From an uncultured Candidatus Saccharibacteria bacterium (GTDB lineage: Bacteria; Patescibacteriota; Saccharimonadia; Saccharimonadales; JACDBH01), in NCBI GenBank assembly GCA_964490245.1, contig CAZBAF010000002.1, positions 2,456 through 66,455 of the forward strand: a stretch of 64,000 nucleotides of DNA, written 5' to 3'. A program made the position numbers and the translations under genes. The notes beneath the pieces were generated by a model, which searched no databases, was not told the DNA's origin, and was given only the letters and a program-made list of their open reading frames with translations. Positions 6,172 through 59,206 of the stretch are shown in pieces (position 1 is the stretch's first letter; each line of letters begins with the position of its first letter).

Positions 6172-7809
6172 TTATGTTCGCGGCAAGTGATCATACAGGT
6201 GCGCCATGGTATATTCGCTGCGCAGCAGCGGCTTAAGACCCTCCAGATCAACACCGGTCTTAACGCCCGGGTTGAGCGTACCATGCGGGTCAAAAATGGC
6301 CTTTACCTGGCAAAACAGATCATACACTTCCTGGCCGTATACATACGGCAGATATGGTGCGCGCAGCCGCCCGTCGCCGTGCTCGGCAGTGGTCGAACCG
6401 CCTAAATCAATCACCAGTTTGTAATAATCGTTCATAAGCTTAAAGATCTTCTGCCGGTCGCCCAGCTGACCCAGATCAAGCATCGGCTGCATGTGCAGGT
6501 TGCCGTTACCGGCGTGACCCCACAATGCCACCTGCAGATGATGCTTTTCGAACAAGGTATAAATACTCTCGACATACTCGCCAAATTTGGCTGTGGGCAC
6601 AATGCCGTCCTCTACAATCGGCAGCGCCCGAATACCGCCCTCGTGATAGGCGGTGATTGCAGCTGCCGACTGACGAAGCTTCCAGATCTGCTCTTGCTGC
6701 TCGGGGCTGGACTCCAGACGACAGTCCGAGTTATAGCGTTCGAGGATTTTCTTTGCCTTTTTGACCATGCGCTTTTGCACCCGCGCGTTGGCGTCATCAA
6801 ACTCGATTAGTAGCATGAGTTTGCGGAAGGGCTTTTCGATCAGCCCCTTGAGCTGGTTGGGGTTGGTTTTGTCGATAAAGTTAAGCAGATTAATATCAAT
6901 CATCTCTAGTGCGCTGGGCAGCGCCGGCAGCTCGCGTATCTCTTGGATGGCTTTGGCAGCCTCTTCGATATCATCAAACGGCGCCAGGATAAGCGAGGTG
7001 TGCGGGTTAAAGCTTTCGGTCTCGACAATCGCCTCAGTCACAATCCCCAGCGTACCCTGCGAGCCCACAAACAGCGGCGTCAGGTCAAACGAGCCGTCCT
7101 TGCGCTTGATATCAATCAGATTATAACCGGCTGCATTCATGCGAATATCTTTGCGCGTCTGCTCGATCAATGACTTGTTTTCTTCGATTAGGGTATCCAG
7201 GGCACGGTACACTTCGCCCTCGAACGTATTCAGCCCCATCTTCTTGCCCAGTTCGCGCTTGCCGATGCGGCGCGACTCGATTACCTCGCCGTTAGCCAGC
7301 ACTACCCTCAGTGAGCGGACATAATCTCTCATCGAACCATATTTAATACTTTTTTCACCGCCGGCATTATTGCCGATAGCACCGCCAACCGTGCTGTATT
7401 CAAGCGAGGCCGGAAACGGCGGCAAAAAGCGGCCATGCGTATGCAGCGTCTGTTGCAGCTTGCCAAAGTTAAGCCCCGGCTGCAGAGCCACGCTGCCGCT
7501 CTTGGGGTCGAGTTCGAGCACCTTGTTCATGTGGGCCGGAAACACCATCATTACACCGCTGCCCAGCGCAGCACCAGACCGGTCCGTGCCCGACCCGCGC
7601 GCAGTAACAGGAATCACACGGCCGCGCTCGGCCAGCTGCCAGGTAAAGCGTGCTGTTTTGCGCACATCGTTTTCGTTGCGCGGATATACAACAATAGCCG
7701 GCGTAAGCGTAAATATGCTCGTATCCGTCGCAAAATAGCGACGTGCATCCGCGCTGGTTATGACTTCGCCGACAAGGTGTTCCTGCAGATAATGTGCAAC
7801 TTTACTCAT
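6172..7809 (-). CDS. FAD-binding oxidoreductase (GlcD / D-lactate dehydrogenase-like, FAD_binding_4 + FAD-oxidase_C)
   Basis: ARGSGTDRSGAALG, GYNLIDI, GSQGTLGIVTEA, GGSTTAEHGDGRLR and FDPHGTLNPG are characteristic blocks. The probable start is the Met at 7809 (MSKVAHYLQEHL...) rather than the track start 7926. Confidence 0.8.
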   Translation of the reverse strand: MSKVAHYLQEHLVGEVITSADARRYFATDTSIFTLTPAIVVYPRNENDVRKTARFTWQLAERGRVIPVTARGSGTDRSGAALGSGVMMVFPAHMNKVLELDPKSGSVALQPGLNFGKLQQTLHTHGRFLPPFPASLEYSTVGGAIGNNAGGEKSIKYGSMRDYVRSLRVVLANGEVIESRRIGKRELGKKMGLNTFEGEVYRALDTLIEENKSLIEQTRKDIRMNAAGYNLIDIKRKDGSFDLTPLFVGSQGTLGIVTEAIVETESFNPHTSLILAPFDDIEEAAKAIQEIRELPALPSALEMIDINLLNFIDKTNPNQLKGLIEKPFRKLMLLIEFDDANARVQKRMVKKAKKILERYNSDCRLESSPEQQEQIWKLRQSAAAITAYHEGGIRALPIVEDGIVPTAKFGEYVESIYTLFEKHHLQVALWGHAGNGNLHMQPMLDLGQLGDRQKIFKLMNDYYKLVIDLGGSTTAEHGDGRLRAPYLPYVYGQEVYDLFCQVKAIFDPHGTLNPGVKTGVDLEGLKPLLRSEYTMAHLYDHLPRT

Positions 7810-7966
7810 CTGAATATGCGTCTTCCTGGTAGAGTCTGCTCGTTTTAGCTGGTTTCTGGTAGCATCATAGCATAAACACTCGCAAATGTGGCCATCAAAA
7901 GAAAACAAAAAGTCCGCAATAGACATTTGCCAAAACGAGCAACACAGAGTACAATGACCTCTGTTC

Positions 7967-8054
7967 GCGGATGTGGCGGAATTGGTAGACGCGCTAGCTT
8001 CAGGAGCTAGTGAGCATTACGCTCGTGGAGGTTCAAGTCCTCTCATCCGCACCA
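7967..8054 (+). tRNA. tRNA-Leu (CAG)
   Basis: Acceptor GCGGATG/CATCCGC, anticodon stem CTAGC/GCTAG with loop TTCAGGA, long variable arm, T loop TTCAAGT, encoded CCA. Confidence 0.9.
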
Positions 8055-8091
8055 GATAAAAACACCAAGCCGAAAGGTTTGGTGTTTTTAT
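8030..8091 (+). repeat. second copy of the 62-bp repeat (tRNA-Leu(CAG) 3' end plus terminator hairpin AAAACACCAA/TTGGTGTTTT)
   Basis: Identical by eye to 5332-5393. Positions 8058-8091 also act as the rho-independent terminator of the tRNA. Confidence 0.85.
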
Positions 8092-8333
8092 CTAGTTCAC
8101 CACGTATGAACCTTAGCGCTCTACAAGCTGATAAGTCTGTACAGCTTCATTACACTAAACAAGCTGAGCAGATTTTTGAGGTTTTTATCTTTTTAGCGCT
8201 GTGCTATTGTTCTTATTATACATCTTAGCACACTTCATTGATTTTGTCAAGTACTTTTTACGTATACCCCTGTAAACTGACTCATTAAGCAGCTCATTTA
8301 GAGGGCATTGTGCCAAGATTTAATTAAGACAGG

Positions 8334-46090: not shown

Positions 46091-47158
46091 TTAGAAAGCT
46101 GCCGTACAGATAAAAGCAATCGTCGTATTGTAAATTCCGCTGGGCTGGTCGGGCGGCACATTGACGATATAGGTAACAGTATAGGTATTGAACGTTGTGC
46201 CGGTTGCGGCACTGGCAACGATATCACCGTCAACAAACTTAAACATATCCGGCACATCGTATTCGGCCGCCACCACGCCGATGCCGGCGCCAAACGCATC
46301 CTGGCCCAGGGCAGGATTGGTATTGGCGCGCAGATTAAGGCCGAACTGCGGCGTGCCGGGGGCGTTGGCCGACAACACACCAAGCGGGGCGATGGTTTTA
46401 TTGCCGGCAGTCATGGTGCTGCCGTTTATGGTTACTACGTAGCCGCCCTGGGCGTTGGTGGCCACCCCAAACTGTGAGGTCGCACTGTCTTCGACCGCAG
46501 GGGACAGTTCGTCATAGTCTATAAAGTTACCGTCGACGTTTTCGCACCACTCGTCAACAGTCAAAGCCGCACAAAAGAATAAATAAGGCGGCACCTCGGT
46601 GGTGATGACGATAGGCTCGGCGGTCGCGTTGGTAACGCTGGCCATATGTGTCGCCGTGCCGGTGGCATCTGTTGAGGTATAGGTGAATATCTGCACAAAA
46701 AACCGCATGTGCACGCCCGTTGGGTTGATCATGTTTTCAAACTCAAACGAATACTGCCCGGTGCCTGTCATGCCGGCTGCCCCGCGCGATAACACAATCT
46801 CGTTAACGCTCTGCGAAGCAATCGAAAACCCGCCCAGCGCTCCGGATTGATTGGTCAACACTGCCTGACCAAAATCACCGGGCGGAGTTACGGCACACGG
46901 ATCGGTGACATAGGCGTCGCTGCACAGCAGCAACCGTACCGAACCAATAGAAGTATTTGTGGGCCAGCGCCAGCGAAACAAATAATCAGTGGCTGCACCC
47001 GGTTCGGTCGTACCAATGGTCAAGCTGCGATCAAACACACGCGGATAATCTGCATATACCCGGCCTATCTGTATAGCCACAATCAACACCGCAAACAAAA
47101 CAAAAGCGATCAATACCCAAACCATTCGGCCCGCACGGTTATAGACCTTACTGCTCAT
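46091..47158 (-). CDS. secreted beta-rich protein, paralog family member (355 aa)
   Basis: N-terminal anchor/signal. Shares RSLTIG, C..(9)..C, FFVQIFT, IVITT and TPQFGLNL blocks and a terminal strand GIYNTTIAFICTAAF* with the two upstream genes. Confidence 0.6.
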   Translation of the reverse strand: MSSKVYNRAGRMVWVLIAFVLFAVLIVAIQIGRVYADYPRVFDRSLTIGTTEPGAATDYLFRWRWPTNTSIGSVRLLLCSDAYVTDPCAVTPPGDFGQAVLTNQSGALGGFSIASQSVNEIVLSRGAAGMTGTGQYSFEFENMINPTGVHMRFFVQIFTYTSTDATGTATHMASVTNATAEPIVITTEVPPYLFFCAALTVDEWCENVDGNFIDYDELSPAVEDSATSQFGVATNAQGGYVVTINGSTMTAGNKTIAPLGVLSANAPGTPQFGLNLRANTNPALGQDAFGAGIGVVAAEYDVPDMFKFVDGDIVASAATGTTFNTYTVTYIVNVPPDQPSGIYNTTIAFICTAAF

Positions 47159-47198
47159 GCTCTTTATTCTACACGAGCCGCTCAGTTACGGACAAAAG

Positions 47199-47237
47199 TA
47201 AAACCGACCCCTTTGGAGCTATGTCCGGGGTCGGTTT
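47199..47237 (-). terminator. strong hairpin after the 417-aa paralog gene
   Basis: 12-bp stem AAAACCGACCCC / GGGGTCGGTTTT with a 15-nt loop. On the minus strand it is followed by ACTTTTGT. Confidence 0.5.
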
Positions 47238-47277
47238 TATGTAGAAGCTATGTTCTATATTTGTATCTGCTATGAGA

Positions 47278-48531
47278 TTAGTAGGTCGGGACCGCTGAGT
47301 ACACAATGGTTGTGCTATAGGTACCAGAGGTGGTTGTAGGACTGATGTTGGCGACATAGCGCACAGCTACAGTCTTACACTCGGTATAGCCGGCAGTGCT
47401 TGCAATGGTGGTGGGGGTGTTGGCAGCGAATGAGAACTGTGCACCACCCGCGGTTAGTGCGCCTGAGCCGTTCGCATAGCCGGCAGCTGGGGTCAGGGCA
47501 CCATTAGCGCCCAGATTGGTTGCCGTATCCACATACTGGAACTGCAAGGGGCTATCACTACTTGCAACCATGACAGGGGCAGCAACACCTTCACCACCGC
47601 TTACTGTATCGATTGCCAGACCAAACTGTTCGGTGCCCGGACTGCTCTCGACACCGGTGCCGATTGGGTTGATGTCAGGGTCGTTGAGAGGATCGTTACC
47701 TTTGCGCAAGGTATCACCCTCGTACTGCACCACGACACCGCTTGCAGCGTTGGTATACAGACGGAAGGCAGAGTAGTTATCGTATGCCTGCAACAGTGAC
47801 AGGGTCTGCTCATCGGGATCACCCAAAGTGATTGCACCGCTACCCTCTAGTGGTGAACAGCTGGCGCCTGGGTCATCTACTTCACCAAAATCACCGGTAG
47901 TAGAGAAGCCAAGCGTTTCAGCCACGCGTGTGGTGATGTAGATACCTTCAGTGATTGAGCTGGCCACTGTGCCGTCATCTACGAGGTCGTCCCAGTCGGC
48001 TGTGTCAGGGTCGTCGTCGCTGTGCGTAGAGATGCGCACAAAGAAAGTGCCGAGGGTCTCGGGGTTTTTAACACCCACGATAGTGAAAGAGACATTACCG
48101 GCAATGTTCTGTGCTGCATCGGTGTTAACAAGCCTAACCGTATTGGCTGAGGCAGCACCTATTTCCCAGTCGTTGTTCAGTACCGCGACACCGCCAAGCG
48201 TTACGTTTGTGGCATCCATGTCAGCTACTGCCGTACAAGGTCCGATAGCCTCCTGGCAGTAGCGCAGCAATATAGACTGCACAGGGGTAGTGGTAGCGGT
48301 TGTAAACGCAAATGTATGATCTGCCTCTGCACCGTTGGTTTCGCTTCCGGGGTCGCCGTCCGCCACATCACCCGCCAGGGTGCTGCTGAGTGTCAGACTG
48401 CGATTGGTCACCTGCGCAGCCTGAGCTGTGCTGAAGAACGATGCAAAGTTCACCACCAGCAGCAACGCCGTAAAGCTCAAGGCTGCCAGGAGAGCCGTCG
48501 ATCGTTTCAGCGAAATTGCATAATTACTCAT
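47278..48531 (-). CDS. secreted beta-rich protein, paralog family member (417 aa, candidate major subunit)
   Basis: AAGGAGA SD and a signal peptide ending AQA. Blocks RSLTLSS, C..(6)..C, FFVRIST, IYITT and TEQFGLAI, with terminal strand GTYSTTIVYSAVPTY*. Confidence 0.6.
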   Translation of the reverse strand: MSNYAISLKRSTALLAALSFTALLLVVNFASFFSTAQAAQVTNRSLTLSSTLAGDVADGDPGSETNGAEADHTFAFTTATTTPVQSILLRYCQEAIGPCTAVADMDATNVTLGGVAVLNNDWEIGAASANTVRLVNTDAAQNIAGNVSFTIVGVKNPETLGTFFVRISTHSDDDPDTADWDDLVDDGTVASSITEGIYITTRVAETLGFSTTGDFGEVDDPGASCSPLEGSGAITLGDPDEQTLSLLQAYDNYSAFRLYTNAASGVVVQYEGDTLRKGNDPLNDPDINPIGTGVESSPGTEQFGLAIDTVSGGEGVAAPVMVASSDSPLQFQYVDTATNLGANGALTPAAGYANGSGALTAGGAQFSFAANTPTTIASTAGYTECKTVAVRYVANISPTTTSGTYSTTIVYSAVPTY

Positions 48532-48644
48532 GCACTATTCTCCTTTGTTTTACTTTTTATTTTAGGTGTTACCTGACGGCTAAGATACCAAAACCCTTAT
48601 GCCTGCGCAAGTATTTTATAGAACCACTTATCCACAATTTTATT

Positions 48645-49379
48645 TTAAAACGTGGCAATTGCCTGCACGACCAGCACTGTTTTATATTGGCCGCCCGGCG
48701 TAGCGTTTGAGATATTGGCAATAATAGAAATAGTGTAGCCGGTTTCGCCGCTGTCGCGTTCGCTTTGGGCAATAATGTCGCCGCTAACAAATTTAAAGTG
48801 ATCTTCAGTGTTGTAACCGGGCGCTGCTTCGCCGAAAGAGAAAGTCTCGTCCGGTGACAGCGACGGATTGGCACCAATACCCGGATTGCTGTTGGCAACC
48901 AGATTAATACCAAACTGCTCGGTGCCGGGCTGAGACAAGCTGGGCGAGTTAAGCGCGGTCAGCGCATGCTGCGCACCGCTGCTGTTGGTTGGCGTGGCGC
49001 CATAGATCTTCACCACATATCCATCGGTTAAATAGTTAATGACCCGAAAGTTGGCACTGGCTGCGGCCGTACCAGACGTGTTCAGAACACCCAGGTCTAT
49101 TAAGTAATTTGAGACACTGACCTCGATAAAAGGCTCGCCCGGCGTACCAAACCCGCCGTCTGTCTGAAAGTTTTCGCTGCTGGTTCCGCCCACTGCCGTA
49201 CCGCCGATTGACTGATCGGCACAGTATTCGTCGCTGCAAGCATCCAGCTCGCCACCGCCGCCTATGAATATTTCGTCAACCCGAAAATTAGGCGATGTGT
49301 GTTGGGCATATGTCACTGCCGGCACCGCCAACAGCAGCAATAGCGTCACTACCCCCAGTCGCACGATGCGAGATTTCAT
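48645..49379 (-). CDS. secreted beta-rich protein, paralog family member (244 aa)
   Basis: The probable start is the Met at 49379 (MKSRIVRLGVVTLLLLLAVPAVTYA|QH). ACSDEYC pair, TEQFGINL and terminal strand GQYKTVLVVQAIATF*. The track start is 49481. Confidence 0.6.
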   Translation of the reverse strand: MKSRIVRLGVVTLLLLLAVPAVTYAQHTSPNFRVDEIFIGGGGELDACSDEYCADQSIGGTAVGGTSSENFQTDGGFGTPGEPFIEVSVSNYLIDLGVLNTSGTAAASANFRVINYLTDGYVVKIYGATPTNSSGAQHALTALNSPSLSQPGTEQFGINLVANSNPGIGANPSLSPDETFSFGEAAPGYNTEDHFKFVSGDIIAQSERDSGETGYTISIIANISNATPGGQYKTVLVVQAIATF

Positions 49380-49622
49380 AAGCGTTATTATAAGTCGATA
49401 TCGTCTATCAAGTCTACACACCGCTCTAGCCCTAAGCGCCGCACGCATGCCAAAGTTACCCTTAGACTTTTTGGGGGCCATCAGTTATGATAGTCCTTAA
49501 AGAACAAGCATTATGTATCCCGTGAGAAACTACCAGATCAGACTGCGTTTAGTAGCGGTTGAAATACCGTTAACGGCTTCGGGTACCCGCCAGCGGGCAG
49601 GAAGGGCCGGTTCTTAAGATCC

Positions 49623-50726
49623 ATGAATGACGAAAACAAACAGCCCGAAGGCGCAACCGGCGAACCGGCGCAGAACCAGAAGTCAGACAAGTCACCTGAG
49701 GAGCTGATGGGCCAGGTCAGCCAGGCTGACGGCTCGCTGGAATCCGGACACAAACAATCGGCGGTTGACGCCATGGCCGACGCCTCTACGACCGAAACCG
49801 ACCCCGCTGCCGTGCCTAAAAAGCCCGAGGCAAAGGGTTTTAAAAAGATCATCGGCAAGGTTAATGTCTACCTGCTGTTATTTATTTTGCTGCTGGTTGT
49901 TGCGGGGGCGGTCTTTTTGGTCATGTATTACATGAATAAGCGCGAAACCGCCGTCAGACTTGAAACTACCCAGCTCACCCAAGAAACTCTTGAAGAACTT
50001 AAAACCAGCGATGCAATTGTAGGCGACCCGCGCCAGATCCTGACCATCGAATCAAACGCCGTCATTACCGGCAAAGTGGTGATGCGCGACACGCTGGATA
50101 TAGCCGGCGCCTTAAGCATCGGCGGGCCGCTCAGCATCCCCAGTATTCAGGCCGGCGGTAACGGTACCTTTGGCAGTCTGCAAACCAATGACCTGCAGGC
50201 AGCCGGCAATGTCGGCATTGGCGGGGTGCTGGATGTAGTGGGCGTGGTTACCTTAGGCAACAACCTGACGGTGGCCGGCGACATTAATGGCGGCGGCCGG
50301 CTGGATGTGGGCGGCCAGGCAACCATAGGCGGTAACCTCAACGTCAACGGCATTATCTCGGCCATCGGTATCAACTTTAATGAGATATCCATCAACCGCA
50401 TTAATATTACCGGCTCCAACCCGACCGTATCTGTCGGCGGGGCAGCCGGCGGCGGCGCAACCGCCAGCGTGAACGGTACCGACACAGCCGCCACCGTAAC
50501 TATCAACACCGGCGGCGGCACCGGCGCAGGCATTCTGGCGACCATAACCTTTACCGGCGCCTTCAACAGCAATAACCCGCACCCCGTCCTGACGCCGAAC
50601 GGACCCGGCTGCGCGCATATTTCGTATTATGTGACCAATATAAGCGCCACGCAGTTTTCGATTGCCAGCGCTAATAATCCGCCGCCAGGGGTAACCTGCC
50701 GGTTTAATTATATTGTTATTAATTAA
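49623..50726 (+). CDS. membrane-anchored protein with parallel beta-helix-like Gly/Asn/Val repeats
   Basis: 367 aa. Acidic cytoplasmic N-terminus, one TM (VYLLLFILLLVVAGAVFLVMYY), then repeats such as GNVGIGGVLDVVGVVTLGNNLTVAGDINGGGRLDVGGQATIGGNLNVNG. Confidence 0.55.
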   Translation: MNDENKQPEGATGEPAQNQKSDKSPEELMGQVSQADGSLESGHKQSAVDAMADASTTETDPAAVPKKPEAKGFKKIIGKVNVYLLLFILLLVVAGAVFLVMYYMNKRETAVRLETTQLTQETLEELKTSDAIVGDPRQILTIESNAVITGKVVMRDTLDIAGALSIGGPLSIPSIQAGGNGTFGSLQTNDLQAAGNVGIGGVLDVVGVVTLGNNLTVAGDINGGGRLDVGGQATIGGNLNVNGIISAIGINFNEISINRINITGSNPTVSVGGAAGGGATASVNGTDTAATVTINTGGGTGAGILATITFTGAFNSNNPHPVLTPNGPGCAHISYYVTNISATQFSIASANNPPPGVTCRFNYIVIN

Positions 50727-50935
50727 GGTTTTGGATTATTAGGGTTTTTCGGTAAGCCCCTGCGGGGGCTTGACCCCATCTCTTTTATTTAAAATAATTT
50801 CAATTAACCATCTCAATGTTTTGCCGCTTTTCTTTTTAAGAGTAAGCAAAAGATTGACTCTTTTTCATAACTTCTTGTAGTCAAGAAGCAACCCCATACC
50901 TTTTTGTATCGACAAAAAGGTATGCCAAAAAGCTC

Positions 50936-51100
50936 GGCCGGCCCACCTGCCGTGACTCGGCTTGTTGTTCAAAAATACAATACGAAAGGCGGACTCCTTT
51001 CAGTCGGCCCCAATAGTTTCATATTTGAGTATTGGGGCTGACGCCTTGCTCTCTATTGTATTTTTGACGAACACCCGAATCAGGACAGGTGGGCATGGCC
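50936..51100 (+). ncRNA. candidate structured RNA: about 165-nt long imperfect hairpin (strand and identity uncertain)
   Basis: The left arm GGCCGGCCCACCTGCCGTGACTCGGCTTGTTGTTCAAAAATACAATACGAAAGGCG pairs with the right arm CGCCTTGCTCTCTATTGTATTTTTGACGAACACCCGAATCAGGACAGGTGGGCATGGCC. The inner stem is GTCGGCCCCAATA / TATTGGGGCTGAC. It is followed by a plus-strand terminator. Confidence 0.3.
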
Positions 51101-51113
51101 AGAACAAGCTGAA

Positions 51114-51136
51114 GCCCGCTAAAGCGGGCATTTTTT
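51114..51136 (+). terminator. rho-independent terminator (plus-strand oriented)
   Basis: GCCCGC-TAAA-GCGGGC followed by ATTTTTT. Confidence 0.6.
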
Positions 51137-51156
51137 AATGGGCGGCTTTGTCGCCT

Positions 51157-51190
51157 TTATCTTCTATCCTCTATTAACTATTATCTATCA
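51157..51190. repeat. heptad-phased CTAT array (4 units)
   Basis: CTAT occurs at 51164, 51171, 51178 and 51185, i.e. at exact 7-nt spacing. It lies downstream of atpC. Confidence 0.6.
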
Positions 51191-51208
51191 GCTAAGCAGG
51201 CCGGTGTA

Positions 51209-51520
51209 CTACACATCCAAAAACACAATAACCTGATCGGCCTTTACATGCATAACCGCGCGGTTGATGCGGATGATTTTGTCGCCGGTAGGCGCGACGA
51301 TTTTCATCTCGCAGGCACTGACAAGCGTCATAAAGTTATGGTGACGCGGCAGGATATCAAACGGCCCGGTGTGGTTTTCGGCGCTGATGCTGTAAGCCGG
51401 CTCATCAAAATAGTTCTGAAACGGCGAATAGACCTTTACCCGCATCAGCGGCTGGCCCTTGTCGTCCTTTAGCTCTTCGGTCGGCGGTTTTTTGGAGTCG
51501 TTTTTATCCTTCTTGGCCAT
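51209..51520 (-). CDS. atpC: F0F1 ATP synthase subunit epsilon (N-terminal beta-sandwich only)
   Basis: 103 aa. VKVYSPFQNYFDEPAYSISAENHTGPFDILPRHHNFMTLV fits the epsilon pattern. It has a Lys-rich N-terminal extension and no C-terminal helical hairpin. Confidence 0.8.
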   Translation of the reverse strand: MAKKDKNDSKKPPTEELKDDKGQPLMRVKVYSPFQNYFDEPAYSISAENHTGPFDILPRHHNFMTLVSACEMKIVAPTGDKIIRINRAVMHVKADQVIVFLDV

Positions 51521-57983: not shown

Positions 57984-59132
57984 CTACCGCAGTACAGAGG
58001 CGAGCGCTTTGAGCAGGGCGCTGACTGCTGCCTGATCGGTCTGGCGGCCAAAGGTGATCCTGAGCGAACTGCGGGCCGCCTCGTCGGGCAGGCCGATGGC
58101 GCCCAGCACATGTGACGGCTCATCAGAGCTGGCACTGCAGGCCGAACCGGTCGCAACCATCATGCCGCGCTCGTCCAGCTCCATCAGCAGACGCTCGTTA
58201 TCGGCGCCCGGGATGGTTATGTGCACGTTATTGGGCAGACGATGCGAACGGCTGCCATTGATACGTATATCGCTCCTGATGCTTGTCAGTTTGTCGAAAA
58301 AATCCGCCTGAAGCGCCTGCAGGCGCTCGGCTTCGGCTGTACGCAGACTCTGGGCTTCGGCCAGAGCAGCGCCAAAACCGGCAATTGCCGGAACGTTTTC
58401 TGTGCCGCTGCGCCAGCCCCTCTCCTGACCGCCGCCCAAAATCTGCGGCTTCAAAAGCACGCCACTCTTTACATACAAAATACCGGACTGCTTGGGCCCA
58501 TAGATTTTGCCACCGTTCAGTGTCATCAGATCCACGCCGAGACTGTTGACAAGCAGCGGCAGATAGTTTGCCGCCTGACAGGCGTCAGTGTGCACATACA
58601 GCGGCAACTGCCGGCCAGCGCCCGATTGATTGGCGCGCTCGGCACGGATTTTCTTAACAAGTGCGGCAATGTCACGCAGCGGCTGGATGGTGCCGATCTC
58701 GTTATTGGCGTACATGATACTTATCAGTACGGTGTCGTCATCAATCAGCTGCTCAAGCCTGGTTAGATTAATGCGTCCGTCGGGGTCAACCGGGGCGATT
58801 TTGTGATCATAATTGCCCGCTGGTGCCAGTACCGAATCGTGTTCGATAGCGCTCACCACACAGTTTTTGCCGGCAAAATGCTGCATCACGCCCTGAATAG
58901 CCAGATTATTGGCCTCAGTCCCGCCGGCGGTAAAAACCACCTCTGTCGGCCTGCACCCGAGCAGCGAGGCCACCTCTGTACGTACGCTATATATAGCGTG
59001 CCCTACGTTCTGAGACGCTATATATAGCGCCGACGGGTTATAAAACTGCTCAGAAAAATACGGCTGCATGGCTGCCAGCGCCGTATCGCTGAGTGGTGTT
59101 GCTGCTGCGTAATCAAAGTAAAGAATGTTCAT
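57984..59132 (-). CDS. cysteine desulfurase (class V aminotransferase, NifS/IscS-like)
   Basis: The probable start is the Met at 59132 (MNILYFDYAAATPL...). SAIEHDSV, the PLP-Lys region GGKIYGPKQSG and the active-site GSACSAS. The track start is 59177. Confidence 0.85.
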   Translation of the reverse strand: MNILYFDYAAATPLSDTALAAMQPYFSEQFYNPSALYIASQNVGHAIYSVRTEVASLLGCRPTEVVFTAGGTEANNLAIQGVMQHFAGKNCVVSAIEHDSVLAPAGNYDHKIAPVDPDGRINLTRLEQLIDDDTVLISIMYANNEIGTIQPLRDIAALVKKIRAERANQSGAGRQLPLYVHTDACQAANYLPLLVNSLGVDLMTLNGGKIYGPKQSGILYVKSGVLLKPQILGGGQERGWRSGTENVPAIAGFGAALAEAQSLRTAEAERLQALQADFFDKLTSIRSDIRINGSRSHRLPNNVHITIPGADNERLLMELDERGMMVATGSACSASSDEPSHVLGAIGLPDEAARSSLRITFGRQTDQAAVSALLKALASVLR

Positions 59133-59148
59133 GTGGTTATAGTCTATA

Positions 59149-59206
59149 GGTAATAGATGATAGATAATAGGTAGCAAATAATCTATTACCTATTACCCAT
59201 TACCCT
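59149..59206. repeat. inverted arrays of GGTAATA-type heptads
   Basis: GGTAATA GATGATA GATAATA GGTAGCA ... TTACCTA TTACCCA TTACCCT. The left and right halves are mutually complementary. Confidence 0.6.

What the first reader, a model, noticed from the sequence alone, without database searches (positions are those of the whole stretch)
50871..51136. Highly structured 480-bp intergenic region: three hairpins, one about 165 nt long, then a plus-strand terminator (candidate ncRNA or MITE)
Seen: between the beta-helix gene (ends 50726) and atpC (ends 51209) there are four structures. (a) The hairpin CTTCTTG-TAGT-CAAGAAG (50871-50888). (b) A perfect 13-bp stem CATACCTTTTTGT-ATCG-ACAAAAAGGTATG (50895-50924). 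(c) A long imperfect hairpin at 50936-51100, whose arms share perfect blocks such as AAAAATACAATA/TATTGTATTTTT, GCCCACCTG/CAGGTGGGC and AAGGCG/CGCCTT, with an inner stem GTCGGCCCCAATA/TATTGGGGCTGAC. (d) GCCCGC-TAAA-GCGGGC followed by ATTTTTT (51114-51136), which is oriented for plus-strand termination. A long irregular hairpin with internal bulges ending in a terminator is the general shape of 6S RNA. Long terminal inverted repeats are also what a MITE looks like. Arm mismatches are mixed: some would be G-U on the minus strand and one on the plus strand, so covariation does not fix the strand.
Basis: partly seen in the sequence, partly recalled or inferred. Interest (0 to 1): 0.6.

Follow-up and report, generated by a model that had tools for sequence, protein, structure and literature searches.

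The report
Conserved four-hairpin RNA module in Saccharibacteria
The four hairpins are real and form one conserved unit, an undescribed structured RNA-like module found behind convergent genes in a group of Saccharibacteria; it is neither a recognisable 6S RNA nor a multi-copy mobile element, and its function is unknown.

Summary
They are not four separate things. They form one unit: P1 (7 bp), P2 (13 bp), P3 (165-nt hairpin) and P4 (GC hairpin plus U-run). I found the same architecture 13 more times in 11 loci from Saccharibacteria MAGs and metagenomes. Stems are kept by compensatory changes: P1/P2 are 94% paired, with 12 of 20 pairs changed on both sides. A few loop and linker motifs are conserved.

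No Rfam 15 family matches any member, even at E<=10, so 6S membership is not supported. The window holds one copy. In about 1 Mb of related loci, hits lie almost only in the intergenic region downstream of atpC. Arms covary rather than keep their sequence, so this is not a MITE.

The unit always follows the stop codon of a co-directional gene. It occurs in both orientations between atpC and its convergent neighbour. Three loci carry two tail-to-tail copies.

Best reading: a lineage-specific 3'-trailer RNA module ending in a bidirectional terminator, transcribed on the window + strand. The strand and the function remain unproven. Wobble statistics do not favour the + strand.

The parts
50753..50772 (+). 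GC-rich hairpin AAGCCCCTGCGGGGGCTT followed by a T-rich stretch. It is the probable terminator of the beta-helix gene (stop at 50726) and is not part of the conserved unit.
   Evidence: Fold of 50727-50900 and sequence. Not reported by the strict terminator scan.
50770..50798 (+). Promoter-like site TTGACC-17-AATAAT (10/12) pointing at the unit. It is a possible own promoter but is not statistically distinguishable from chance.
   Evidence: 2 sites found against 1.7 expected in shuffles. No conserved counterpart in homologues.
50813..50857 (+). Extra hairpin (TCAATGTTTTGC ... GCAAAAGATTGA) upstream of P1. It is specific to the window.
   Evidence: (I7).
50871..50888 (+).
   Evidence: In the family, 5 of 7 pairs change on both sides and 98.6% of cells are paired.
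50895..50924 (+). The core UUUUUG...CAAAAA is nearly invariant.
   Evidence: 7 of 13 pairs change on both sides.
50925..50935 (+). Conserved A-rich linker CCAAAAAGCTC (family consensus CAAAAGAGCUC). Its GCU pairs with AGC at 51108-51110 at the foot of P3.
   Evidence: Alignments; folds.
50936..51100 (+). It has a lower stem of about 45 rungs with a conserved internal loop (UGACU at 50954-50958 facing AAUCA at 51079-51083). Next comes helix AAGGCG/CGCCUU, then the unpaired 5'-side motif GGACUCCUUUC (from 50991), then a 13-bp apical stem with a 14-nt loop (51003-51042).
   Evidence: Against L039 copy a: 54 P3 pairs are all kept, with 11 double changes. The same architecture appears in all homologues.
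51101..51113 (+). Conserved purine-rich linker CAGAACAAGCTGA (family AAAAG[C/U]AGAA, running into the G of P4). On the minus strand it reads as the U-rich tail UUCAGCUUGUU after P4.
51114..51136 (+). It is an intrinsic terminator for the + strand unit and a probable terminator for atpC coming from the minus strand.
   Evidence: + strand terminator hit. Family comparison.
51140..51156 (.). Small hairpin GGGCGGCTTTGTCGCCT between P4 and the atpC stop. It is not conserved in homologues.

Best explanation
The four hairpins are one unit of about 270 nt: P1-P2-P3-P4. It belongs to an undescribed family of structured RNA modules restricted, as far as sampled, to a clade of Saccharibacteria (TM7, Patescibacteria).

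Shown: the unit is conserved in architecture, with compensatory changes in every helix. It has a few conserved unpaired motifs. It always begins 10-140 nt after the stop codon of a co-directional gene. It lies mostly in the gap between atpC and a convergent gene of unknown function. It occurs in both orientations there. In three loci it is present as two tail-to-tail copies.

Inferred: in the window it is transcribed on the + strand, either as the trailer of the beta-helix gene or from a weak promoter-like site at 50770-50798. It ends at P4. P4 works in both directions, so it also ends atpC transcription and keeps convergent transcription out of P3. P1-P3 then remain as a stable, largely double-stranded 3' RNA domain. 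This domain would protect the upstream message and/or be released as a small RNA that binds a protein through its conserved internal loops.

The orientation differences between genomes are best explained by inversion of the whole intergenic segment between the inverted P1-P2 ends of a two-copy ancestor, followed by loss of one copy.
For: Structure: z about -10, and unique in the window.

Family: the covariance model R1 of P1+P2 finds the window, L039 (twice), L008, L011, L067, L085, L087, L089 and L090 at E<=2e-9, and L021 and L023 more weakly. Every one continues into a long hairpin.

Covariation: P1/P2 in 10 sequences are 93.9% paired. 12 of 20 pairs change on both sides, no shuffle of 500 does as well, and slid controls give about 50%. 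Window against L039 copy a: 84 pairs are all kept, with 19 double changes; slid controls give 37-46%.

Synteny rather than dispersal: all confident R1 hits in about 1 Mb of atp loci lie downstream of atpC, and there is one copy in the window.

Position after a co-directional stop codon: atpC in L008, L011, L039a, L067 and L085; the convergent gene in the window, L039b, L021 and L023; a 172-aa ORF in L090.

Tail-to-tail pairs: L039, L085 and L023.

P4: the sense U-run is present in the single-copy loci (window, L008, L011). A conserved U-rich tail on the other strand is present in all members. The scan reports P4 of L039 on both strands. There is a G.U pair in P4 of L011 and L039b on the sense strand.
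Against: There is no transcript evidence of any kind.

The strand is not fixed. RNAalifold gives equal support on both strands (86 against 84 pairs), and z-scores of P3 are equal on both strands. With strand-neutral scoring of P3 in 12 members, isolated mismatches are A.C on the proposed sense strand 40 times and G.U only 17 times. P1/P2 are 92% Watson-Crick, with G.U and A.C at 4 cells each. That pattern fits a hairpin that must form on both strands, an antisense RNA, or homogenisation of the arms at DNA level better than it fits a one-strand RNA.

The unit is absent from this locus in many close relatives; in L091 the two genes are 1 nt apart. It is therefore dispensable here or located elsewhere.

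No conserved promoter was found, and the window's promoter-like site is at chance level.

The family sample is small (14 copies) and was found partly with a pattern derived from the family itself.
Confidence: 0.5

Rival explanations
1. The functional RNA is the other strand (window minus strand). The unit would then be the 3' trailer of atpC in the window, read as P4'-P3'-P2'-P1'.
For: More G.U than A.C on that strand in P3 (40 against 17). Lower MFE on that strand in 10 of 12 members. P2' followed by a U-containing tail is scored as terminator-like on that strand in L039.
Against: Z-scores are the same on both strands. Several of the A.C oppositions sit in a conserved internal loop rather than in helices. 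On that strand P4' with its conserved U-rich tail comes first and should stop transcription before P3'. In two-copy loci the P4s are about 12 nt apart, which leaves no room for divergent promoters. In L090 both flanking genes run in the sense direction.
Confidence: 0.2
2. It is a 6S-like RNA: a rod-shaped RNA with an open bubble that sequesters RNA polymerase holoenzyme.
For: P3 is a long irregular hairpin of 140-200 nt with a large asymmetric internal loop (20 nt / 11 nt in the window) and a terminator after it. Sequence drifts fast while the rod is kept. Two paralogous copies occur in some genomes, as in Bacillus (own knowledge). No 6S RNA of Saccharibacteria is reported in the searched literature.
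Against: No match to Rfam 6S or related models, even at E<=10, in five member regions. The loop is next to the apex, with only a 13-bp terminal stem. There are two additional conserved 5' hairpins. The unit abuts upstream stop codons. It is absent at this locus in many near relatives.
Confidence: 0.1
3. It is a mobile or formerly mobile palindromic element (MITE, REPIN/BIME-like or ERIC-like) that landed in a permissive convergent intergenic region.
For: Presence or absence varies among close relatives. It occurs in both orientations. It appears in other contexts in L089 and L090. Other unrelated hairpin modules share the same gap, also in both orientations.
Against: There is a single copy in 64 kb and no off-locus confident hits in about 1 Mb of related DNA. 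No matches in viral contigs. The arms differ in sequence between copies and covary, so no conserved terminal repeat exists for a transposase. Flanks of the window copy and of L008 show no shared target-site duplication. The two copies in L039 are as diverged as copies from different genomes.
Confidence: 0.08
4. It is a DNA-level palindrome. The arms are kept complementary by template switching or intramolecular gene conversion, or for a cruciform or protein-binding role. There is no specific RNA function beyond generic bidirectional termination.
For: Pairs are almost all Watson-Crick, and G.U is no commoner than A.C. Many other Saccharibacteria have unrelated, nearly perfect 100-160-nt palindromes starting 3-10 nt after atpC. 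That suggests a generic need for a big hairpin at this convergent junction.
Against: The conserved asymmetric architecture (P1, P2, linkers, internal loop, apex motif GGA(A)CUC) persists over AtpD identities of 65-92%. A generic palindrome would not keep such features. GC skew shows no terminus or origin here.
Confidence: 0.12

Closest known systems
6S RNA (ssrS; Rfam RF00013 and relatives)
   Same: A long, irregular, mostly double-stranded RNA of similar size. It has an internal open loop, fast sequence drift with a retained rod shape, and sometimes two paralogues.
   Different: No covariance-model match. The loop is not central. There are extra 5' hairpins P1 and P2. The unit abuts upstream genes and is patchy among close relatives.
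Bidirectional intrinsic terminators between convergent genes
   Same: P4 is a GC hairpin with U-rich sequence on both sides, placed between convergent genes. The location of the whole unit is the same.
   Different: The unit carries about 240 nt of additional conserved structure (P1-P3) that termination does not need.
3'-UTR-derived small RNAs and 3' stabiliser hairpins (e.g. REP/BIME in E. coli 3' UTRs; CpxQ/SroC-type sRNAs; own knowledge)
   Same: It begins just after a stop codon, ends at the gene's terminator and is highly structured.
   Different: It is not a high-copy repeat like REP. No processing site or target is known. It occurs in paired convergent copies.
MITEs and palindromic repeats (Correia, ERIC, RPE, REPIN)
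   Same: An imperfect long palindrome, intergenic, found in either orientation and with patchy presence.
   Different: Low copy number, syntenic, covarying arms, and no terminal-repeat sequence or target-site duplication.
Retron msr-msd RNA
   Same: Small 5' hairpins followed by a long hairpin.
   Different: No reverse transcriptase gene is adjacent, and a terminator follows the long hairpin directly.

Membership tests
6S RNA | Match to the Rfam covariance models for 6S and related families | tested here: not met
   No hit at gathering score. No 6S hit at E<=10 in window 50650-51300, L039 7760-8460, L085, L087 or L089.
6S RNA | Rod with a large central bubble flanked by a long closing stem and a long terminal stem | tested here: inconclusive
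   P3 has a 20/11-nt internal loop, but it lies next to a 13-bp apical stem rather than centrally. Part of it can pair as AAGGCG/CGCCUU.
6S RNA | Binds sigma-70 holoenzyme and templates product RNA | not testable with these tools
   Needs biochemistry.
MITE / palindromic repeat element | Many dispersed copies per genome | tested here: not met
   One copy in the 64-kb window by BLAST and by model R1. All confident hits in about 1 Mb of related loci lie downstream of atpC. Whole genomes could not be searched.
MITE / palindromic repeat element | Terminal inverted repeats conserved in sequence, flanked by target-site duplications | tested here: not met
   Arms differ between copies and covary. No duplication is shared by the flanks of the window and L008 copies.
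Intrinsic (Rho-independent) terminator | GC-rich stem-loop followed at once by a U-run | tested here: met
   P4 at 51114-51129 plus ATTTTTT is reported on +. The L011 P4 is reported on +. The L039 P4a is reported on both strands.
Retron non-coding RNA | Reverse transcriptase gene immediately downstream on the same strand | tested here: not met
   The neighbours are atpC and an ORF without a Pfam family, and neither is co-directional downstream.
Signal recognition particle RNA (large, Bacillus type) | Conserved domain IV apex (GNRA loop, symmetric and asymmetric loops) and a match to the Rfam SRP models | tested here: not met
   No SRP hit. The apical loop is 14 nt and variable.
New family proposed here (P1-P2-P3-P4 module) | P1 7 bp; P2 about 13 bp with UUUUUG/CAAAAA; A-rich linker; P3 140-200-nt hairpin with the YGAnU / AUCRG loop and the GGA(A)CUC apex motif; purine linker; P4 | tested here: met
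   The window copy has every element.

The most novel reading that the evidence does not exclude
P1-P3 is a stable, protein-binding regulatory RNA specific to Saccharibacteria. It could be a functional analogue of 6S RNA, or a CU-rich (anti-Shine-Dalgarno-like, CUCCUUU) regulator. It would be made from the 3' ends of convergent genes, kept as paired convergent paralogues, and shuffled by inversion between its own inverted ends.
Probability: 0.2. Interest if true: 0.7.

Novelty: new variant of a known kind. Interest (0 to 1): 0.5.

Why it matters
Saccharibacteria and other Patescibacteria have tiny genomes and almost no described regulatory RNAs. I found no paper on 6S or small RNAs in them. 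A module of about 270 nt with four conserved helices survives genome reduction and recurs behind the ATP synthase operon. It would be one of the few lineage-specific structured RNAs known in this group. The tail-to-tail pairs with shared bidirectional terminators also bear on how these bacteria end convergent transcription. If it is only an elaborate terminator, it is of modest interest.

Tried and rejected
- A global fold of 600 nt downstream of atpC in 80 loci was uninformative.
- RNALfold over whole loci timed out. The restricted run had poor specificity.
- My strand-neutral hairpin scan has a high noise floor. Its two other top hits in the window (15390, 29298) are noise, with z about -1.
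- MAFFT cannot align P3 across subtypes. This was true for the four-sequence alignment and for mini-hairpins with the apex replaced. P3 covariation is therefore documented only for window against L039a, plus per-sequence folds.
- Look-ups of four atpC homologues gave 11 loci without the unit.
- The exact-protein look-up of the window's AtpC failed.
- The metagenome pattern scan returned 6 chance hits among 10. The viral scan found nothing.
- Small ORFs inside the unit were rejected as coding. These include the 43-aa minus-strand ORF 51000-51131 and the 'MFLR...' frame starting at the RTG before P1. Stops and frames are not conserved.
- A dif site or replication terminus was rejected: the cumulative GC skew is monotonic.
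- Integron attC was rejected: the core-site motifs are absent by inspection of the P1/P2 sequences, and none of the ten neighbouring ORFs scanned has an integrase-type Pfam family.
- SRP RNA and retron were also considered and rejected.

Full report
**Observation.** The sequence is as described.
- Hairpin (a) is at 50871-50888.
- Hairpin (b) is at 50895-50924.
- The long hairpin (c) is at 50936-51100.
- Hairpin (d) plus ATTTTTT is at 51114-51136.

They lie in a 482-bp gap between two convergent ORFs. ORF 49623-50726(+) has no Pfam family. ORF 51209-51520(-) is the last gene of an atp operon on the minus strand (PF02823; the beta, gamma and alpha subunits lie upstream). The repeat finder recovers the quoted arms. 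Region 50860-51145 folds at -130.1 kcal/mol on + (shuffles -76.4 +/- 5.4, z -9.97) and at -135.8 on - (z -10.74). No other hairpin of this size exists in the window. The terminator scan reports (d) on +.

**Organism and known families.** A scan of one genome per species with the AtpD protein returned 80 loci, almost all titled Saccharibacteria or Saccharimonadales MAGs, at up to 92% identity. The window therefore comes from a member of that group. Rfam 15 finds only four tRNAs in the window at gathering score. In the intergenic region at E<=10 it finds only generic hairpin look-alikes such as miRNA precursors. The same holds for seven related loci at gathering score and for four member regions at E<=10. 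ARAGORN finds nothing here.

**A family.** BLAST and nhmmer first found L039 (CAZXOA010000005.1) with 72% identity over 247 nt. They also found the 5' part (hairpins a and b plus linker) in L008, L011 and L067.
- Folding each shows the same order of elements. There is a 7-bp hairpin (P1), a 13-bp hairpin (P2), and an A-rich linker (CAAAAGAGCUC). A 140-200-nt hairpin (P3) follows, then a purine linker (AAAAG[C/U]AGAA) and a GC hairpin (P4).
- A degenerate pattern spanning P1-P2 found four more members in metagenome contigs (L085, L087, L089, L090) and six chance hits. It found none in viral contigs.
- A covariance model of P1+P2 (R1) scores ten copies at E<=2e-9, and L021 and L023 more weakly. 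It finds exactly one copy in the window.
- L039 carries a second copy on the other strand. L085 and L023 also carry second, convergent copies.
- In total I count 14 copies in the window plus 11 loci.

**Covariation.** In the 10-sequence alignment of P1 and P2, 93.9% of cells pair, against about 50% when partners are slid. 12 of 20 pairs show changes on both sides, and no shuffle of 500 reaches the observed values. Between the window and L039 copy a, all 84 pairs of P1-P4 are kept, with 19 double changes and 5 one-sided G.U changes; slid controls give 37-46%. P3 cannot be aligned by sequence between subtypes. Each copy nevertheless forms the long hairpin, with z-scores from about -3 to -10 for most.

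Some motifs are conserved despite this drift:
- UUUUUG/CAAAAA in P2.
- The two linkers.
- An internal loop low in P3: YGAnU on the 5' arm facing AUCRG on the 3' arm.
- An unpaired GGA(A)CUC[C/U-rich] motif on the 5' side of the apex, GGACUCCUUUC in the window.

**Context.**
- In every copy with known flanks, P1 starts 10-140 nt after the stop codon of a gene on the same strand. In L023 it overlaps the stop. The gene is atpC in L008, L011, L039a, L067 and L085. It is the convergent neighbour in the window, L039b, L021 and L023. It is a 172-aa ORF in L090.
- Relative to atpC the unit therefore occurs in both orientations. The window copy is inverted compared with its closest homologue, L039a.
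- L089 and L090 show other gene neighbourhoods.
- Many close relatives lack the unit at this locus. In L091 the two genes are 1 nt apart. L097, L002 and L007 carry a different hairpin family. L003 and L006 carry others.
- More distant Saccharibacteria have unrelated, nearly perfect 100-160-nt hairpins starting 3-10 nt after atpC.

**P4.** In the single-copy loci P4 is followed by a U-run on the sense strand: AUUUUUU in the window, UAAUUUUU in L008 and AUUAUUUAU in L011. In all members the conserved purine linker before P4 reads UUCU(G/A)CUUUU on the other strand, which is a U-rich tail for P4 in the opposite direction. The scan reports P4a of L039 on both strands. In the two-copy loci the P4s are adjacent (about 12 nt apart in L039) or shared (L085). 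P4 is thus best read as a bidirectional terminator at the meeting point of two convergent transcription units.

**Strand.**
- For the + strand in the window: the P4 U-run, the tail-to-tail arrangement, the co-directional flanks in L090, and a G.U pair in P4 of L011 and L039b.
- Against: consensus folding supports both strands equally, and z-scores are equal. With strand-neutral scoring, isolated mismatches in P3 are A.C on the sense strand 40 times and G.U 17 times. P1/P2 are 92% Watson-Crick with equal G.U and A.C.
- Some of the A.C oppositions lie in the conserved internal loop, but the pattern is not that of a typical one-strand RNA.
- I put the + strand at roughly 65%.

**Interpretation.** The element is a conserved, low-copy, syntenic structured module.
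- It is not a member of any Rfam family.
- It is not a dispersed repeat.
- It is not coding: ORF frames and stops are not conserved.

The most economical mechanism has two parts. P1-P3 is transcribed as the trailer of the upstream gene and ends at P4. P4 also stops the convergent transcript.

Whether P1-P3 acts in cis (3' protection, insulation) or in trans (protein-binding or CU-rich seed RNA) cannot be decided here. The conserved loops argue for more than a terminator. The patchy distribution and the generic presence of big hairpins after atpC in other lineages argue for a cis role.

The swap of subtypes between the two sides of the gap is explained by inversion of the whole segment between the inverted P1-P2 ends of a two-copy ancestor, followed by loss of one copy. 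The window-type P3 lies after atpC in L039 but after the neighbour gene in the window. This inversion step is inference.

**Verdict.**
- Observation: confirmed.
The 6S and MITE ideas are not supported.
- Novelty: an undescribed family of a known general kind.
- Interest: moderate.

Noticed in passing
L039 7793-7821 (minus strand): A perfect sigma-70 consensus promoter, TTGACA-17-TATAAT with TG before the -10 (12/12). It lies between the atpC stop and P1 of copy a and points back into atpC, antisense to the atp operon.
   Followed up: no
L016 6278-6425; also L061, L028, L024, L075, L060, L064, L065, L043, L057, L062 just after atpC: Unrelated, nearly perfect 100-160-nt hairpins start 3-10 nt after the atpC stop in many Saccharibacteria. 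In L016 a stem of about 32 rungs, Watson-Crick apart from its wobbles, has all four wobbles as G.U on the atpC strand. L016 and L075 share a conserved apex.
   Followed up: partly
L002 7830-7890, L007 3650-3715, L097 2845-2910; inverted in L011 2750-2815: A second hairpin family (GAGACAACCATTCGCGGCCCC...GGGGACCCTCCGGATAGGTTTTC) occupies the same atpC-downstream gap, again in either orientation.
   Followed up: no
window 51209-51520 (-): The ATP synthase epsilon subunit is only 103 aa and matches only the N-terminal beta-sandwich domain (PF02823). The C-terminal helical domain seems to be missing.
   Followed up: no
window 46091-50726: Four consecutive ORFs (355, 417, 278 and 367 aa) have no Pfam family.
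   Followed up: no
window 8051-8096: A hairpin with 21-nt arms (90% complementary) starts at the 3' end of tRNA-Leu(cag). It is probably its terminator.
   Followed up: no
window 59135-59204: An inverted repeat with 27-nt arms (78% complementary) lies at the start of ORF 57984-59177(-).
   Followed up: no
L059 about 7760-7810: A tandem run of the heptamer CCACTAG lies directly after atpC.
   Followed up: no
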